From positions 96,001-160,000 of the IMG/VR virus record IMGVR_UViG_3300009031_000221: DNA of 64,000 nt; one strand, 5' to 3'. The notes beneath the pieces are model-generated. The model was given only the letters and a program-made list of their open reading frames with translations. It had not been told where the DNA came from and did not search any database. The translations under genes and the position numbers were made by a program. This document shows positions 14,881-19,810 of the stretch, one piece after another. Numbering within the stretch: the stretch's first letter is position 1; every line of letters begins with the position of its first letter. This DNA comes from a virus. Lineage: Duplodnaviria > Caudoviricetes.

Positions 14881-15281
14881 ATCGGCGATACCGCAAACCT
14901 CGGGATCCTAACAAACCCCCGGATCTTCGAGTTTGGTGGGTGTACGTTATACAGTCCCTTGAAACCCGATTCGGAAAACGTGGGAATCAACTACCAGGAT
15001 TCCACTATGTCGGGTGCACTACAGAACCTTCACGCCGCATTCGAATGCACAACGGGGAGATTGCAGGCGGAGGGCGCTATACCTCCATGCATCAACCCTG
15101 GGTGCCCCGGGCGCTATTCGGACCCTACACCGGGCAATCGGAAGCATTGAAGGCTGAGCGGGCATTGAAGCACGGCAAACGGGGAACTGACCGAGTCCAG
15201 TGGAAGCCGGAAGATTCCCCCTGGTGCCGTGGGGAAGGCCCGAATCATCCGTGGGTTTTAGACCCTACGTGGAAAGCCTAG
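14877..15281 (+). CDS. GIY-YIG nuclease, SLX1/UPF0213-like
   Basis: WVYVIQS...HYVGCTTEPSRRIRMHNGEIAGGGRYT...PW...EALKAE; ATGA overlap with the ARH stop. Confidence 0.85.
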   Translation: MNRRYRKPRDPNKPPDLRVWWVYVIQSLETRFGKRGNQLPGFHYVGCTTEPSRRIRMHNGEIAGGGRYTSMHQPWVPRALFGPYTGQSEALKAERALKHGKRGTDRVQWKPEDSPWCRGEGPNHPWVLDPTWKA

Positions 15282-17077
15282 TCCTTCGGGACTTCCTGAA
15301 ACACCCGTGCGGCTGCTTGCTTCTTGGCTTCCTTCTTATTCGCCACGGGCATAGAAGTCAACCACTGGCGCTTCCCCTGAATTTGAACCGTGCATGTGCA
15401 TGAGAACAATGGCGCATGTTCAGGCCCGCCCTCACGAGAAAACGTGTACTCCGGCAAAGGGATGGACATCTTCTGGGTGTACTCCTGCAACATGACTACC
15501 GGATCCCCCTTAGGGACGGATGGTTGCAACCCTACATCCACGGGCAAATCCTCTTCATACTCCGCGAACCACGGAATTGGGGATGCTACGTTCGCAATAC
15601 GAGACAAAAGGACAACGACAGCCTTCTGCCGAACTTCCTTGATTGCATTTGCCTGAACCCATCCCCCTTTGACTTCCACCCCACCCTTCAACGTGACCTT
15701 CGCCTGGGTAGAAAATACGGGGGCATGATCCGGCCCTGACCGGTGGGTCTTGTAGGTCACTTCAGACCACCCTGCCAAATTCATTGCCACGGATGCAATA
15801 CTGGTTGCCTTGTACAGGTTGTTGGCCACATTATGGACAATTGCCTCCTGAACCCACCGCCATGCCAGGGAATCATGAGGCGTTTCCAACAACAAGTAGT
15901 ACATGTCCAACAATGTTAACCGATCATCACGGATCCGTTCCCGCAATGATTGTCCCAACTTGTCGGACAACTGATTGGATCGAACACTTGTCTTGATGAC
16001 GCGCTCGAATTGAATGGGGCTCAGCTTGTTCAGGTTGCCGGAATCCAAAGCTTGCGTTGCTTCCTTGACTGCACGTTCCTTGAAGAAGTCCGTGGTATCT
16101 TCTTTGTCCGCAGCAATCTTGGCATTGATGTGTTCGGCAATCGCGACAATATCTTCCCGTGTGTGCGGCAATTTATCGCCCTTGAAGAATGCTTTGATTT
16201 GGCGTTGATTCACCAAGTCCGCATATCGACGAATAGGCGAAGTGGCATGCATGTAGGCAGGAAGATTGAGCCCGTAATGCCCTTCCAAAGTTGCCCCATA
16301 CTCTGCCTGCCGCATCGTCATACCCAGGCGCTGACGCAATGCGTCGATTCCGGCGTCAGGGTACTTGAGTGCCATTTCCAGTTGCGACAGCACCTCCATA
16401 CGAGGTGGGGCATGTGCCTTTACCGTATGGTTGCGAAACAGGATAGGGATCTCATAATGAGAGCATAGCCGTGCCAACTCCGCATTGGCGAGAACCATCA
16501 ATTCCTGAACGATGACATATCCAATAGTTTCCTGGATATCCGGCAGATGCCGAAGTTGCCCTTCCTCAGTCGTCACCCAACCATTGGTTAGGTCATAAAG
16601 AGCAAGCGCACCCGCTGACCGCCGGCGTGCCATCAACCCATCAGCCAACCGTGCCATGTTGGATAACCCCACATGGAGGTCATGTCCCGGGCTATTCAGA
16701 ATGCCCGGGACATCGCCAAAGGACAGCCTAGCTGCACTGCTAAATGGTTCAAACGTGACAATGGGAAAAGTGACAGGTTCCAAGTTTCCGTTCAGTACGG
16801 TGCGGATGACCATTCCTTGCCGAGGCTGACCCTCGTGCAAGGATAGCAATTCATCGGACAACTTCCTGGGAAGCATGGGAGCGTTGCCGGATGCAAAGTA
16901 CCTGGTAGCAATCCGATTGGACGCCATATCGTCAAGGAAACTGCCCTTAGGGACGTCGTTCGTGACGTTGGCTATGACTATGGTAACCGCCCATCCAACG
17001 CCATTGCGTTCGACCCAGATAGCGTCATCGAGGTCTTGCGAATGTGCTGCGTCAATGGTGATTGCATGTATAGTCAT
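15278..17077 (-). CDS. RNase II/R (RNB) exoribonuclease with two C-terminal dsRBDs
   Basis: Catalytic TIDAAHSQDLDDA, HYGL and YMHATSPIRRYADL. C-terminal SGPDHAPVFS...KEVRQKA and DPVVMLQEY...GGPEHAPLFS...KKEAKKQAA are dsRBD motifs. Confidence 0.88.
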   Translation of the reverse strand: MTIHAITIDAAHSQDLDDAIWVERNGVGWAVTIVIANVTNDVPKGSFLDDMASNRIATRYFASGNAPMLPRKLSDELLSLHEGQPRQGMVIRTVLNGNLEPVTFPIVTFEPFSSAARLSFGDVPGILNSPGHDLHVGLSNMARLADGLMARRRSAGALALYDLTNGWVTTEEGQLRHLPDIQETIGYVIVQELMVLANAELARLCSHYEIPILFRNHTVKAHAPPRMEVLSQLEMALKYPDAGIDALRQRLGMTMRQAEYGATLEGHYGLNLPAYMHATSPIRRYADLVNQRQIKAFFKGDKLPHTREDIVAIAEHINAKIAADKEDTTDFFKERAVKEATQALDSGNLNKLSPIQFERVIKTSVRSNQLSDKLGQSLRERIRDDRLTLLDMYYLLLETPHDSLAWRWVQEAIVHNVANNLYKATSIASVAMNLAGWSEVTYKTHRSGPDHAPVFSTQAKVTLKGGVEVKGGWVQANAIKEVRQKAVVVLLSRIANVASPIPWFAEYEEDLPVDVGLQPSVPKGDPVVMLQEYTQKMSIPLPEYTFSREGGPEHAPLFSCTCTVQIQGKRQWLTSMPVANKKEAKKQAAARVFQEVPKD

Positions 17078-17089
17078 ATCCCGGCACTC

Positions 17090-17449
17090 CTAGATGAACT
17101 GGTGCCAGATATACCCAATTCCGACGAGTGCCAGCGATGCCAAGATGCTCGCCAGGATTGCGCCGCAGGAATCGCCCATCTGCTCCAGGAAGGTACGAGT
17201 CTCCTTCTCCTCCCCCTTGACGAGCTTCTTGATCTTCTCAAGCCCGAAGAAAATGCCCATGAGGAACGGACCACTGGCCAGGATGAGCCCGATCCCCTGC
17301 ATCGGGGAAATCGCAGGGACGGCGGGGAATGCCGTGATGACGAACCAGCACCACATCTTCGCCAACGCCCAGCCGTTGACCACGGACGACAGCACGCCAA
17401 AGGCCATAGTGAAAACAAACGCCGCCAAACCAACGAAAAACTTGTTCAT
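17090..17449 (-). CDS. Membrane protein
   Basis: Three to four hydrophobic segments; AGGAG RBS. Confidence 0.7.
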   Translation of the reverse strand: MNKFFVGLAAFVFTMAFGVLSSVVNGWALAKMWCWFVITAFPAVPAISPMQGIGLILASGPFLMGIFFGLEKIKKLVKGEEKETRTFLEQMGDSCGAILASILASLALVGIGYIWHQFI

Positions 17450-17724
17450 GTATCGCTCCTTGCTTTGTAAGCAGCGTACGCTGCCGTTGCCTCAGGGCTG
17501 AGGGACTGTTCAATGTAGTCACATAGAGCGTCCCGCAACCCTCTCTCACACGGATGCATCTGGATAACGGTGGTCACCCCACCCGCAACCATCACCCCGT
17601 CATCGCCTTTGCGAATGTCTTGCACAATCTCCGCAATCTCAACCGGGTCTTCAAGCTGCGTCACATCCGAGAAGATGTTGATCAATGACTCCAGGATAGG
17701 TCCTTTGTATGCTTGAAGTCTCAT
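17446..17724 (-). CDS. Hypothetical protein
   Basis: GAGGA RBS; first gene after a class-1 promoter. Confidence 0.7.
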   Translation of the reverse strand: MRLQAYKGPILESLINIFSDVTQLEDPVEIAEIVQDIRKGDDGVMVAGGVTTVIQMHPCERGLRDALCDYIEQSLSPEATAAYAAYKARSDT

Positions 17725-17758
17725 CGTATCCTCGTTTCACCCGTCAGGGTTCGTGCTG

Positions 17759-17784
17759 TCTACGCCTACCTTGCGGAAAGTAAG
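17759..17784 (-). promoter_or_regulatory. Class-1 promoter motif CTTACTT-N12-GCGTAGA
   Basis: Upstream of the 17724-17449-RNB operon. Confidence 0.65.
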
Positions 17785-17797
17785 TCACACAAAAGCA

Positions 17798-17831
17798 CAA
17801 CACCCCCGGTTGGGCCCAACCGGGGGTGTTG
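17798..17831. terminator. Perfect 34-bp palindrome; intrinsic terminator
   Basis: caacacccccggttgggcccaaccgggggtgttg, followed by tgcttttg on the minus strand. Confidence 0.7.
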
Positions 17832-17866
17832 CATTCACCTTTTTTATATACTCATTAGGTATTAAA

Positions 17867-17935
17867 TCAACAACCCCCGTTAGGGGTTAGGGCCGGGGGT
17901 GCCCGGGCAGACCTCTTTCGCCGTCTATTTTTCAT
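17867..17935 (-). CDS. Micro-ORF MKNRRRKRSARAPPALTPNGGC (RAPP-motif peptide, copy 2)
   Basis: AGAGGT RBS 6 nt upstream. All differences from copy 1 across RRKRSARAPP are synonymous. Confidence 0.65.
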   Translation of the reverse strand: MKNRRRKRSARAPPALTPNGGC

Positions 17936-17995
17936 ACTTATACCTCTATGATTTATGCGTGATTTAGGCTTACATCAACAACTCCCGTTAGGGAG

Positions 17996-18046
17996 TCACG
18001 TCGGCGGCGCTCTGGCAGACCTTTTACGTCGTGTGCGGCTTCTCAT
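17996..18046 (-). CDS. Micro-ORF MRSRTRRKRSARAPPT (RAPP-motif peptide, copy 1; alternative start 18058)
   Basis: First ORF after a class-1 promoter; paralog of 17867-17935. Confidence 0.6.
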   Translation of the reverse strand: MRSRTRRKRSARAPPT

Positions 18047-18095
18047 GATGGTGTCCATTCATCGGGGAAGTTAGGGTGCCCCGGTTCACATACCA

Positions 18096-18121
18096 TCTAC
18101 GCCGATGTCTGGGAAAGTAAG
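18096..18121 (-). promoter_or_regulatory. Class-1 promoter motif CTTACTT-N12-GCGTAGA
   Basis: Upstream of the RAPP micro-ORFs. Confidence 0.65.
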
Positions 18122-18122
18122 T

Positions 18123-18467
18123 CTACGAATCAACTTTTAGTGATGCCCTCAAGAACTCTAGGAATTCTTCCCATTCCTCTAGGTCACACGCACCCTTCGC
18201 AGCGTTCGCACCCCAACAAGCTAGCACTACATTCGACCTAACGTACCCACGGCTATTGTCCGTCCGGTCAATGGTAGGGATCATCGGATGCCTAGGGCCT
18301 ACATCATCCTTCCACTGCATAGGAACCTTGAACCAGTAGCATAGGCCCGATTGTTCGTCCCAAATCTCTACTATGTCTTGGGCAGTCAGATCGAACGGCA
18401 TGCCCCGTTCAAGGGCACGTCTACGGGCATTGCCTATGAGGATGTTGACCCAAGCAGGATGACTCAT
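18123..18467 (-). CDS. HNH-type (His-Me finger) endonuclease-like protein
   Basis: CYWFKVPM...PTIDRTDNSRGYVRSNVVLACWGANAAKG resembles the phage SxDRxDNxxGYxxxNV..C...N..K family. Confidence 0.7.
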   Translation of the reverse strand: MSHPAWVNILIGNARRRALERGMPFDLTAQDIVEIWDEQSGLCYWFKVPMQWKDDVGPRHPMIPTIDRTDNSRGYVRSNVVLACWGANAAKGACDLEEWEEFLEFLRASLKVDS

Positions 18468-18486
18468 ATTACTTCTACGCGATTGG

Positions 18487-18512
18487 CTTACTTCTCATGC
18501 TGCCAGCGTAGT
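18487..18512 (+). promoter_or_regulatory. Class-1 promoter motif CTTACTT-N12-GCGTAGT
   Basis: Directly upstream of the 18530 gene. Confidence 0.6.
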
Positions 18513-18529
18513 AGATGTAGGAGGACACC

Positions 18530-18730
18530 ATGGATACCCGCTTCGAGTGCCTGATTGATTTCACCAAGGGATGCACCATCATCGTGGATGACCACAAGTG
18601 GGAGCCCATTGCTCATGGCGTGGTCAATTACACGTACCGGGATCGAGCGCCCGTGGAGATCGACATCATCGAGGCCGCGATTTCGGCGGGCAAGATCAAG
18701 GATAGTCGCAAGGGCTGGTTCGCGATGTAG
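18530..18730 (+). CDS. Small hypothetical protein (66 aa)
   Basis: GGAGGA RBS and its own class-1 promoter. Confidence 0.7.
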   Translation: MDTRFECLIDFTKGCTIIVDDHKWEPIAHGVVNYTYRDRAPVEIDIIEAAISAGKIKDSRKGWFAM

Positions 18731-18743
18731 TAAAGGCGGGGTG

Positions 18744-19304
18744 CTACTCGCCCCACCTTTGCTTCTCGTATTCCTTCCAATTCTTTGTCGTGGGCTTGGA
18801 AGGCTTCTTCTGTCCGCCAGGGCCACCATTCTCAGTGACGTAACAACGGTCAGCGGGGTCACCCGTCTCATAGTAGCATTGACCCTTAGCCTCGGGTTCC
18901 CACTTGCCGGGGTCACGGGAAGGCGAATCGCCATATCCCTTGCCCTTCTCCCCATGCTCACGACCCGCCTCTACACCTTCGGCAGCATTAATACCATAGG
19001 CGGCTTCGGATTCATCAAATTCACGGGCTTCACTGCGAAAGCGGCTCAATAGACGGTCAACCAGGACGGCTTCTTCCGTAGCCTGAATGGTATCCAACAG
19101 AGCTACGCAGAATGCAAATGCCGTTGTTTGGTCCCACTTGATGAACGTCGCAACCTTGCTAAGCAATACCCGGTAGGACATCGGAAGGCGATTAACGTAC
19201 GCCGCCTTCTTTTCCTGGGATGCACGAATAAGCGGCACTAGGTGAGGCCGCAACTCAGGATTGGCTTGTGCAAGCTTGATTATTTCTTTCCGTAGATCCC
19301 TCAT
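18744..19304 (-). CDS. Putative internal head protein with N-terminal LRxx..LAxANPELR motif
   Basis: The N-terminus is shared with 62035-62490; contains KKA; has a late-type promoter upstream. Confidence 0.6.
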   Translation of the reverse strand: MRDLRKEIIKLAQANPELRPHLVPLIRASQEKKAAYVNRLPMSYRVLLSKVATFIKWDQTTAFAFCVALLDTIQATEEAVLVDRLLSRFRSEAREFDESEAAYGINAAEGVEAGREHGEKGKGYGDSPSRDPGKWEPEAKGQCYYETGDPADRCYVTENGGPGGQKKPSKPTTKNWKEYEKQRWGE

Positions 19305-19343
19305 ATGCGTTCCTCCGGCCTAAGTGCCTACCAGGAGAATACG

Positions 19344-19358
19344 TATAGAATGCCTACC
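19344..19358 (-). promoter_or_regulatory. Putative late promoter GGTAG-gcat-TCTATA
   Basis: Matches the recurring motif; upstream of 19304. Confidence 0.5.
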
Positions 19359-19363
19359 GAGAT

Positions 19364-19810
19364 TCATTCATCTGAATGGAGTACCGTAGATTGGAATTTT
19401 GGTGCAAACGTTGTGGCCCCTGGATCCCATATATCCTCGTCCCCATTCATATTCCCCTCGTACACAAGGGTTTCAGTCTGGTCTACCGCGATACTCGGGG
19501 GAGCGTCCCAGGCCTGTCCTTCCGACAACATGTACATTGCACGTCGAACTTCAGGGATTTTGTCCTCCGGAATCAATCCTTTGTCCCACAACCGTTTCAG
19601 ATTCATGAACCCATGCTTCATGTAGGGGTTCGGAGGATGCTCCAAAGGATGTGTTGGATCTCCCGGCATCGTCGCCACATACAAATGCTCATCGGGATGG
19701 TTATCTGGGTGTAGATTCGCCCGTAGATAGTTTTGCATCCCCTCGAGTGCTGCTGCCTGTTCATCTGGATGGATGAGGAGGTCACGAATATTCTTGATAG
19801 GTCGAGTCAT
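19364..19810 (-). CDS. Hypothetical protein
   Basis: ATGA overlap with the upstream endonuclease gene. Confidence 0.6.
   Translation of the reverse strand: MTRPIKNIRDLLIHPDEQAAALEGMQNYLRANLHPDNHPDEHLYVATMPGDPTHPLEHPPNPYMKHGFMNLKRLWDKGLIPEDKIPEVRRAMYMLSEGQAWDAPPSIAVDQTETLVYEGNMNGDEDIWDPGATTFAPKFQSTVLHSDE

What the first reader, a model, noticed from the sequence alone, without database searches (positions are those of the whole stretch)
17860..18121. Tandem micro-ORFs encoding Arg-rich RAPP peptides, each followed by a conserved hairpin: candidate phage ribosome-arrest system
Seen: a class-1 promoter drives MRSRTRRKRSARAPPT* (17996-18046) and MKNRRRKRSARAPPALTPNGGC* (17867-17935), closed by a terminator. 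Across the 10 codons RRKRSARAPP the copies differ at 7 nt, all synonymous (including AGA/CGG). After RAPP the amino acids diverge, but an RNA hairpin CCC-UAAC-GGG (with a U-A/C-G compensatory pair) and GUUGUUGAU are kept. Established: RAPP/RAGP-type motifs drive nascent-chain arrest in ApdA/ApdP/SecM-type peptides, and Arg/Pro-rich peptides can block the exit tunnel. Inference: a stand-alone transcript that stalls or titrates host ribosomes, or senses translation state, next to an RNase R-like operon. I know of no phage example, but did not search.
Basis: partly seen in the sequence, partly recalled or inferred. Interest (0 to 1): 0.82.

Follow-up and report, generated by a model that had tools for sequence, protein, structure and literature searches.

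The report
Tandem RAPP arrest micro-ORFs in megaphage
A 536-kb groundwater phage carries a small self-contained transcript with two tiny arginine-rich reading frames that both end in the ribosome-stalling motif Arg-Ala-Pro-Pro and are each followed by the same RNA hairpin; it looks like a new, very short phage version of a bacterial ribosome-arrest switch, but it is known from this one phage only and has not been tested.

Summary
On the minus strand, 18123-17786, a phage promoter drives two micro-ORFs, MRSRTRRKRSARAPPT and MKNRRRKRSARAPPALTPNGGC, and a 16-bp terminator closes the unit. This promoter type occurs 131 times in the genome. Across RRKRSARAPP the copies differ at 7 of 30 nt, all synonymous (simulated P 6e-5). 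Amino-acid conservation stops right after Pro-Pro. Nine bases later a 20-nt hairpin-plus-tail element is kept at nucleotide level (19/20, with one compensatory pair).

New findings:
- The stem starts 11-12 nt after the would-be P-site codon in both copies.
- The 3' arm of hairpin 2 can pair with the terminator's 5' arm (-20 kcal/mol), a trp-attenuator-like geometry.
- The RNA holds six CCUAA motifs (0.13 expected).
- A sister contig has the same endonuclease gene, promoter and downstream genes but no cassette, so the unit is a lineage-specific, moron-like insertion.
- No homologue and no RNA data were found.

Best reading (about 0.45): cis-acting RAPP-type arrest modules that switch RNA structure, perhaps gating read-through into the RNase II/R-like operon. 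Nothing supports titration of host ribosomes. I class it as a new variant of a known kind, of moderate interest. Another first-stage note in this scan describes this same stretch; the scan found no look-alike on other DNA.

The parts
18095..18123 (-). Promoter P1 (GACTTACTTTCC-N8-GGCGTAGAT). It overlaps the stop codon of the upstream endonuclease gene.
   Evidence: member of a 131-copy promoter class with fixed 12-nt spacing. It is orthologous to the promoter in sister contig L017.
18063..18083 (-). 5'-UTR hairpin CGGGG / CCCCG with CCCUAAC in its loop
   Evidence: It occupies the same position as the 5'-UTR hairpins of other transcripts from this promoter class.
17996..18046 (-). sORF1, 16 codons plus UGA. 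The RAPP codons lie at 18013-18002. A weak GGA Shine-Dalgarno sits 7 nt upstream of the AUG.
17974..17996 (-). Module 1 RNA element: hairpin ACUCCC-UAAC-GGGAGU (it can extend to 11 bp with CGAC/GUUG) plus tail UGUUGAU. The tail contains a UGAUG stop/start overlap followed by UAA.
   Evidence: The stem starts at +12 from the first Pro codon.
17943..17946 (-). GAGG Shine-Dalgarno of sORF2, 7 nt before the AUG
17867..17935 (-). sORF2, 22 codons plus UGA. The RAPP codons lie at 17905-17894.
17861..17889 (-). Module 2 RNA element: an 8-bp hairpin inside the last codons of sORF2, plus a U-rich tail. It is terminator-like, and its 3' arm GGGGGUUGUUG is the candidate antiterminator strand.
   Evidence: terminator-like site at 17889-17871; duplex with the terminator's 5' arm of -20 kcal/mol, matched by 2 of 2000 shuffles.
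17786..17833 (-). Strong intrinsic terminator (16-17 bp stem, -32 kcal/mol) with a U-tract
   Evidence: Only 4 of 131 promoters of this class have any terminator-like hairpin within 90 nt upstream, and this is the strongest of them.
17758..17786 (-). Promoter P2, a second copy of P1 (same GACTTACTTTCC and GGCGTAGA), in front of the 92-aa gene
   Evidence: It is absent from sister contig L017.
15278..17724 (-). Downstream operon: 92-aa protein, 119-aa membrane protein, RNB plus dsRBD exoribonuclease. This is the possible target of read-through.
   Evidence: RNB 1.9e-55, dsrm 5e-16; the 92-aa and 119-aa proteins are near-orphans.
18123..18467 (-). Upstream 114-aa endonuclease VII/HNH-type gene (context: a free-standing nuclease next to the insertion)
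   Evidence: phrog_3322, 2.4e-26. 69% identical to the L017 homologue.

Best explanation
The cassette is a self-contained unit of about 330 nt: phage promoter, two tandem micro-ORFs, strong terminator. In this lineage it was inserted between a promoter and the gene that promoter drives in a sister phage.

Each micro-ORF is a cis-acting RAPP-type ribosome-arrest module. [quoted passage not shown] A ribosome parked there covers the 5' arm of the hairpin, which begins 11-12 nt downstream, and so holds that hairpin open.

In module 2 the freed G-rich 3' arm can pair with the 5' arm of the terminator as it emerges, forming an antiterminator. A ribosome that runs on to the UGA covers that arm, and an untranslated RNA folds the small hairpin. 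Either way the terminator forms. Arrest would therefore mean read-through into the operon of the 92-aa, 119-aa and RNase II/R-like genes. No arrest or no translation would release an RNA of about 290 nt.

Shown: the anatomy, the peptide-level and RNA-level conservation, the complementarity, and the insertion. Inferred: translation, arrest, the kinetic competition between structures, and what signal modulates the arrest.
For: - Peptide under purifying selection: 7 of 7 differences are synonymous (P 5.75e-5).
- Amino-acid conservation ends exactly after Pro-Pro and is replaced 9 nt later by nucleotide-level conservation (19/20, with one compensatory pair).
- The P-site-to-stem distance is the same in both copies.
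- RAPP is a documented arrest core. It is the most or nearly the most avoided 4-mer in bacterial proteomes, is enriched near the C-termini of small ORFs, is refractory to EF-P, and needs little upstream context (PMC12992588). The stall state and the two-module model come from PMC10951233.
- sORF1's AUG sits where genes behind this promoter normally start. sORF2 has a good SD.
- The 3' arm of hairpin 2 pairs with the terminator's 5' arm at -20 kcal/mol. Both 10-11-mers are unique in 536 kb.
- On a partial transcript that ends at the terminator's 5' arm, the antiterminator is the minimum-energy fold.
- sORF2's stop codon lies inside the antiterminator strand, as in trp-type attenuators.
- The terminator is exceptional for this genome.
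Against: - The cassette is known from one phage only. No homologue turned up in the phage, viral, metagenome or genome collections, so there is no comparative test beyond the two internal copies.
- Promoter P2 directly behind the terminator makes read-through dispensable for the operon. The sister contig shows that P-to-gene is the ancestral state.
- At equilibrium the terminator always wins, so the switch would have to be kinetic.
- Module 1 has no comparable downstream partner (-11 kcal/mol with the terminator arm). A function common to both modules is therefore not explained by attenuation alone.
- sORF1's SD is weak.
- Known RAPP arrest peptides are long and carry signal or membrane segments that release the stall. 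These 13-14-residue nascent chains cannot be pulled, so what modulates the arrest is unknown.
- The six CCUAA motifs are not explained.
Confidence: 0.45

Rival explanations
1. The unit makes trans-acting arginine-rich peptides. The two small basic peptides (net charge about +8) are the product and bind RNA, for example the CCCUAAC hairpins on their own transcript. That would work like the arginine-rich motif of lambda N on boxB. Alternatively they bind other nucleic acid.
For: The peptide is under selection. Its composition resembles arginine-rich RNA-binding motifs (my own knowledge). Hairpins with a shared CCCUAAC element lie next to each ORF and in the 5' UTR. The unit is autonomous, like a phage moron.
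Against: A generic basic peptide should tolerate R/K swaps, yet 10 of 10 residues are fixed, including S, A and the PP. Conservation stops exactly after PP and the C-terminal tails differ (T* versus ALTPNGGC*). RAPP is the kind of motif that proteomes avoid because it hampers synthesis (PMC12992588). A 16-22-residue peptide has no domain with which to contact RNA polymerase or Nus factors.
Confidence: 0.15
2. The functional product is a regulatory RNA of about 290 nt (or shorter forms ending at hairpin 1 or 2). Its repeated CCUAA motifs and GGGRGUUGUUG arms bind a protein or target RNAs. Translation of the micro-ORFs only modulates its fold or stability (a dual-function sRNA).
For: There are six CCUAA in 217 nt where 0.13 are expected, the only such cluster in the genome. 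The 20-nt element is conserved at nucleotide level with no third-position drift. The unit has its own promoter and strong terminator and no gene. It is one of only three promoters of this class not followed by a gene; the others drive a tRNA cluster and an ncRNA candidate. The fold z-score is -3.3.
Against: Period-3, all-synonymous drift across 30 nt is not expected for a purely RNA-level constraint. No Rfam family matches. No complementary target class was found. No homologues are available to test covariation.
Confidence: 0.15
3. One reading: the transcript is a trap that sequesters host ribosomes, tRNA-Pro or rescue factors. It would act like the lambda bar minigenes, which cause peptidyl-tRNA drop-off and tRNA starvation, and so manipulate or probe host translation.
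For: The unit is stand-alone with two arrest-type ORFs. The phage invests heavily in translation: 67 tRNAs, a tmRNA and a suppressor tRNA. An RNase II/R-like gene lies next door.
Against: Stoichiometry argues against it. Each RNA holds only a few ribosomes, so titration would need very high expression, for which there is no evidence. The model does not explain the conserved hairpins, their fixed spacing or the complementarity to the terminator. One promoter among 131 of the same class gives no sign of exceptional strength.
Confidence: 0.1
4. The cassette is a decaying remnant. An arrest leader with an SD-masking hairpin and a UGAUG coupling junction once preceded a gene that has been lost. The leader was duplicated, and the cassette now has little or no function.
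For: The 3' half of each module looks like a translation start site (SD-like GGGAG/GGGGG, 6 nt, AUG/AUU) that is followed at once by UAA. Module 1 has a UGAUG overlap. A real gene in this genome starts with the same GGAGUUGUUGAUG. The locus is rearranged relative to sister phages and sits beside a homing-type endonuclease gene.
Against: Both copies kept the peptide through saturating synonymous change and kept 19 of 20 nt of the RNA element. That indicates continued selection on both after the duplication.
Confidence: 0.1

Closest known systems
RAPP/RGPP-type ribosome arrest peptides (ApdA, ApdP, CruR, Streptomyces RAPP/RGPP uORFs; SecM with RAGP)
   Same: R-A-P-P sits at or near the C-terminus of a small ORF. 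Conservation is confined to the residues just before the arrest point. An mRNA hairpin directly downstream would be opened by the stalled ribosome. The hairpin's 3' arm is SD-like, as in SecM-secA-type switches.
   Different: The ORFs are phage-encoded and only 16 and 22 codons long. They are polybasic, with no signal or membrane segment, so force-dependent release is impossible. They occur in tandem. No gene follows the unmasked SD-like site (AUG-UAA). The unit is closed by a terminator instead of leading into a regulated ORF. Arrest has not been shown.
Ribosome-mediated transcription attenuators (trp leader; arrest-dependent ermK and mef/msrD leaders)
   Same: A leader ORF is present, with four segments able to form 1:2, 2:3 and 3:4 pairings. 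The stop codon lies in segment 2, the stall site covers segment 1, and a strong intrinsic terminator forms from 3:4.
   Different: The stall would come from a nascent-peptide motif, not from starvation codons or an antibiotic. A full promoter lies right behind the terminator. There are two leader modules, and only the second is complementary to the terminator.
Attenuator-derived dual-function RNA rnTrpL with leader peptide peTrpL (Sinorhizobium; PMC6614838, PMC7298713; abstracts only, seen)
   Same: A short terminated leader transcript could itself be a trans-acting RNA, and its leader peptide could have its own role.
   Different: There is no sequence relationship. The trans functions here are only conjecture.
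Lambda bar minigenes (my own knowledge, not checked here)
   Same: They are phage-borne micro-ORFs whose translation perturbs the translation apparatus rather than making a protein.
   Different: The bar minigenes are two-codon ORFs that act through peptidyl-tRNA drop-off. They have no arrest motif and no conserved hairpin.
Phage morons
   Same: The unit is an autonomous promoter-to-terminator insert between two genes that are adjacent in a relative (L017).
   Different: Its cargo is two micro-ORFs plus RNA elements, not a protein-coding gene.

Membership tests
RAPP-type ribosome arrest peptides | R-A-P-P (or RGPP/RAGP) core, with Arg three residues before the A-site Pro | tested here: met
   Both sORFs contain RAPP. 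They are the only Arg-rich short ORFs with RAPP in the genome.
RAPP-type ribosome arrest peptides | The motif lies near the C-terminus of a small ORF, and sequence conservation is concentrated just upstream of it | tested here: met
   RAPP is 1 codon (sORF1) and 8 codons (sORF2) before the stop. Ten of 10 residues ending in PP are identical with only synonymous differences, and divergence is immediate after PP.
RAPP-type ribosome arrest peptides | Translation elongation arrests with peptidyl-RAP-tRNA in the P site | not testable with these tools
   This needs toeprinting, a peptidyl-tRNA gel or Ribo-seq. No RNA run was listed.
RAPP-type ribosome arrest peptides | The stall remodels an mRNA structure that controls a downstream gene | tested here: inconclusive
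   A hairpin starts 11-12 nt after the P-site codon in both copies, and its 3' arm is SD-like. The following 'ORF' is AUG-UAA or AUU-UAA. Module 2 can instead form an antiterminator.
RAPP-type ribosome arrest peptides | An N-terminal signal or membrane segment allows force-dependent release (monitoring substrates) | tested here: not met
   The peptides are 16 and 22 residues long, polybasic, and have no hydrophobic stretch.
Ribosome-mediated transcription attenuator | Mutually exclusive 1:2, 2:3 and 3:4 helices, with 3:4 an intrinsic terminator | tested here: met
   Energies are: 1:2, -10.5; 2:3 duplex, -20; 3:4, -32 kcal/mol with a U-tract. There are no homologues to test covariation.
Ribosome-mediated transcription attenuator | The leader stop codon and stall site are placed so that a stalled ribosome frees segment 2 and a terminating ribosome covers it | tested here: met
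   The UGA lies inside GGGGGUUGUUGA. A ribosome at RAPP reaches to about +15, into segment 1.
Ribosome-mediated transcription attenuator | The regulated genes depend on read-through (no promoter between the terminator and the genes) | tested here: not met
   A full promoter copy, P2, lies 10 nt after the terminator stem.
Known RNA families (Rfam 15) | Covariance-model match at the gathering score | tested here: not met
   No match at the gathering threshold. There were only sub-threshold hits to the terminator hairpin.

The most novel reading that the evidence does not exclude
The cassette is an autonomous, phage-borne ribosome-arrest sensor. Two ultra-short polybasic RAPP peptides are detached from any regulated ORF, and their stall state (set by some property of the infected cell's translation apparatus such as Pro-Pro bond formation, rescue capacity or a ligand) decides whether a strong terminator is read through into an RNase II/R-like operon. 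This would be the first arrest-peptide switch described in a phage, and the first RAPP switch acting on an intrinsic terminator.
Probability: 0.2. Interest if true: 0.8.

Novelty: new variant of a known kind. Interest (0 to 1): 0.55.

Why it matters
RAPP-type arrest peptides are known as bacterial sensors of protein export or metal status, placed in front of the genes they regulate. My literature search found no phage example; it was not exhaustive.

A 16-22-codon polybasic version would show three things. The RAPP core can work with a nascent chain that never leaves the ribosome tunnel. Arrest modules can move as self-contained inserts. Huge phages, which already carry tRNAs, a tmRNA and a suppressor tRNA, may also read or exploit the state of host ribosomes.

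The cassette is small enough to test directly in PURE systems. The evidence is limited to one genome with two internal copies, so the functional claims remain hypotheses.

Tried and rejected
Searches for homologues all came back empty or with chance hits only:
- blastn of the cassette and of 12 kb around it against phage records.
- tblastn of the peptide against phage records.
- The exact hairpin-tail pattern in viral contigs, metagenome contigs and genome contigs. The hits were chance matches inside unrelated genes or sequence.
- A back-translated RRKRSARAPP pattern in viral contigs. It gave five high-GC, off-frame chance matches.
- A peptide alignment searched against metagenome contigs. 600 pattern matches, none confirmed.
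- No look-alike in earlier scan notes.

Searches through the neighbouring genes:
- RNB homologues at 51-59% identity (L010, L011, L012) and at 38% (L004) lack any Arg-rich RAPP sORF in the fetched 14-22 kb.
- The whole L004 record has no match to a degenerate pattern.
- The 92-aa and 119-aa proteins are orphans by word-index search.
- Other assemblies of the same phage are identical.

Expression: no RNA holder was listed.

Ideas rejected:
- Recoding. UGA is the commonest stop of long ORFs, and the only suppressor tRNA reads UAA, so UGA read-through, selenocysteine or an alternative code is not indicated.
- Stop-gated arrest leader, as noted elsewhere in the scan. It does not apply, because there is no in-frame stop before RAPP.
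- -1 frameshift site. There is no conserved slippery heptamer.
- T4 gene-60-like bypass. This was considered for sORF1 only and is not shared by sORF2.
- Antisense ORFs. Their frames are not consistent between the copies.
- Hairpin 1 opening controlling sORF2's ribosome-binding site. Accessibility of sORF2's SD and AUG barely changes in constrained folds.

Full report
**Where it lies.** The window is bases 96001-160000 of a 536,053-bp virus record. Near-identical DNA is held by groundwater metagenome runs. The genome carries 67 tRNA genes, a tmRNA and one suppressor tRNA with anticodon UUA. UGA is the commonest stop of its long ORFs (103 of 267), so the standard code applies.

**The observation.** Read on the minus strand, the 398-nt gap between a 114-aa gene (stop at 18123) and a 92-aa gene (start at 17724) contains, in order:
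- promoter P1, 18123-18095;
- a 5'-UTR hairpin with CCCUAAC in its loop;
- sORF1 (18046-17996), MRSRTRRKRSARAPPT;
- hairpin ACUCCC-UAAC-GGGAGU followed by UGUUGAU;
- a GAGG Shine-Dalgarno;
- sORF2 (17935-17867), MKNRRRKRSARAPPALTPNGGC, whose last codons form the second hairpin and carry the same GUUGUUGAU tail;
- a 16-17-bp terminator with a U-tract (17833-17796, -32 kcal/mol);
- a second promoter copy P2 (17786-17758), an SD, and the 92-aa gene.

**Is it more than chance?** In the ten codons for RRKRSARAPP the copies differ at 7 of 30 nt. Six differences are at third positions and one is the first position of AGA/CGG, and all are synonymous. Seven random substitutions were all-synonymous in 5.75e-5 of 400,000 trials. 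In the other five frames the same differences change 2-7 residues. About a quarter of the bases, and most synonymous sites, have changed while the peptide stayed fixed, so both copies have been under selection as coding sequence.

The pattern then switches. The nine bases after Pro-Pro differ at six positions (T-stop-L versus A-L-T). The next 20 nt are identical but for one base, and that change is matched by a change on the other side of the stem (U-A versus C-G). So there are two kinds of constraint side by side: a peptide constraint that ends exactly at R-A-P-P, and an RNA constraint that begins nine bases later.

**The promoter.** CTTACTT-N12-GCGTAGA occurs 131 times in the genome with an almost invariant spacing, against 17 in a reversed-sequence control. 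It is normally followed within 30-50 nt by a small hairpin, an SD and a start codon. sORF1's AUG lies 49 nt behind it, preceded by GGA at the usual 7-nt distance.

Only three of these promoters are not followed by a gene: one before a tRNA cluster, one before an ncRNA candidate at window 13343, and this one. The promoter is therefore a genome-wide class, not the four-copy regulon proposed in another first-stage note. Only 4 of the 131 have any terminator-like hairpin in the 90 nt upstream. The one before P2 is by far the strongest, so the cassette is unusually well insulated.

**Relatives.**
- No homologue of the cassette was found in phage records, viral contigs, metagenome contigs or prokaryote genomes, whether by DNA, by back-translated peptide or by the hairpin pattern.
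- Other assemblies of the same phage are identical.
- Phages whose RNB nuclease is 51-59% identical keep the wider synteny but lack the cassette and the 92-aa and 119-aa genes.
- The most informative relative is a 2.2-kb contig, L017, found through a sensitive search with the 92-aa protein. It has the same endonuclease gene (69% identity). It has the same promoter overlapping that gene's stop codon. Directly after the promoter comes a 190-aa gene whose C-terminal half is the 92-aa protein (45% identity). A homologue of the 119-aa membrane protein follows (40% identity).
- L017 has no micro-ORFs, no terminator and no second promoter.

In the window's phage, the stretch consisting of cassette, terminator and P2 therefore sits where the sister has the 5' half of a gene. 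It is a lineage-specific, self-contained insert, built like a phage moron. P2 looks like a copy of P1: both share GACTTACTTTCC and the uncommon GGCGTAGA.

[quoted passage not shown] Counted from the first base of the first Pro codon, the six-pair stem of hairpin 1 starts at +12 and the eight-pair stem of hairpin 2 at +11. Hairpin 1 can also extend to 11 pairs, starting at +5. A ribosome arrested at RAPP would thus hold the 5' arm of either hairpin inside or at the mouth of its mRNA channel and keep the hairpin open.

The 3' arm plus tail reads GGGAG or GGGGG, then UUGUUG, then AUG or AUU, then UAA. That is an SD-like element at ideal spacing from a start codon, which is followed at once by a stop. 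In module 1 there is a UGAUG stop/start overlap. A real gene of this phage (start at window 30163) begins with the same GGAGUUGUUGAUG. That is the layout of an arrest-controlled, SD-masking hairpin with a translational-coupling junction, except that no gene follows.

**A possible output.** The 3' arm of hairpin 2 (GGGGGUUGUUG) is complementary to the 5' arm of the terminator. The duplex is -20 kcal/mol, matched by 2 of 2000 shuffles, and both sequences are unique in the genome. On a transcript that ends at the terminator's 5' arm, this pairing is the minimum-energy fold.

sORF2's UGA lies inside that arm. This gives three states:
- a ribosome stalled at RAPP frees the arm, and the antiterminator can form;
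- a ribosome at the stop codon covers the arm, and the terminator forms;
- an untranslated RNA forms both the small hairpin and the terminator.

This is the geometry of a trp-type attenuator, with a nascent-peptide stall in place of starvation codons.

Caveats:
- At equilibrium the terminator always wins, so the competition would have to be kinetic.
- The 3' arm of the terminator itself resembles the module arm, so the complementarity may partly reflect common descent.
- Module 1 has no comparable partner.
- P2 makes read-through unnecessary for expression of the operon.

**What the literature supports.** RAPP and RGPP are versatile arrest cores that work with different upstream sequences. They are refractory to EF-P and do not need the tunnel constriction. 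They are among the most avoided four-residue strings in bacterial proteomes and are enriched near the C-termini of small ORFs upstream of diverse genes (PMC12992588). The minimal RxPP motif can suffice, and about seven upstream residues modulate the stall; this is the two-module model (PMC10951233). This fits a conserved ten-residue block ending in RAPP.

It differs from known cases in that those peptides are long and carry export or membrane signals that release the stall. Here the nascent chain would be 13-14 residues long and wholly inside the tunnel. I found no paper describing such a cassette in a phage; the search was not exhaustive.

**Unexplained.**
- The transcript holds six CCUAA motifs in 217 nt where 0.13 are expected. 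It is the only such cluster in 536 kb. In each module one copy lies in the hairpin and another 24-25 nt further on.
- The two sORFs are in the same frame, separated only by UGA codons. I see no evidence for read-through.

The arrest-peptide reading is the most economical explanation for why conservation is peptide-level up to Pro-Pro and RNA-level from a fixed distance beyond it. I give about 0.45 to cis-acting arrest modules that switch RNA structure. Within that, terminator read-through is the best-supported but unproven output.

The rivals are trans-acting arginine-rich peptides, a dual-function small RNA, a ribosome or tRNA trap, and a remnant of a lost leader-gene junction. None can be excluded without experiments.

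The cassette is a new variant of a known kind, seen in one phage.

Noticed in passing
whole genome G000 (e.g. window 17758-17786, 18095-18123, 13343): A phage-specific promoter consensus CTTACTT-N12-GCGTAGA occurs 131 times with fixed spacing, against 17 in a reversed control. It is usually followed by a 5'-UTR hairpin, an AAGGAAC-type SD and a start codon 30-50 nt downstream. It does not match the sigma-70 consensus (0 sigma-70-like sites in 17000-19500).
   Followed up: partly
L011:8700-8832 and L010:8498-8632: Sister phages carry an element of about 130 nt in the gap near the RNB gene. It has a closing stem GACCCCGG/CCGGGGTC and inner stems kept by 7 both-side changes. It has no Rfam match and no copy in this genome, so it is a candidate ncRNA.
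   Followed up: partly
L017:1-1420 versus window 17090-18467: The sister contig has endonuclease, promoter, a 190-aa protein and a 112-aa membrane protein. The window's 92-aa protein corresponds only to the C-terminal half of the 190-aa protein, so the family has a variable N-terminal part (homologues of 111, 149 and 190 aa).
   Followed up: partly
window 18123-18467 (-) and 18530-18730 (+): The 114-aa ORF is an endonuclease VII/HNH-type nuclease (phrog_3322, 2.4e-26). The 66-aa gene on the plus strand is 63% identical to a gene that in L011 lies on the same strand as RNB and directly upstream of it. This segment is therefore inverted or rearranged relative to that relative.
   Followed up: partly
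G000:C1:225791-226190, 483473-483562, 213498-213586 (outside the window): ARAGORN finds a phage tmRNA (tag ANDNVEFTSFAAAA), a suppressor tRNA with anticodon UUA, and an 89-nt tRNA-like gene reported with a four-base anticodon (tgaa).
   Followed up: no
window 15278-17077 (-): The RNase II/R-like protein starts at the RNB domain (residues 4-298) and ends in a dsRBD (529-595). There is no Pfam hit for cold-shock or S1 domains. Hundreds of homologues with the same architecture exist, some on contigs of 360-620 kb and some in Methanosarcina genomes.
   Followed up: no
window 17859-18079 (-): Six CCUAA motifs lie in 217 nt of the cassette RNA (0.13 expected), with conserved 24-25-nt spacing inside each module. 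No partner sequence or binding factor was identified.
   Followed up: partly
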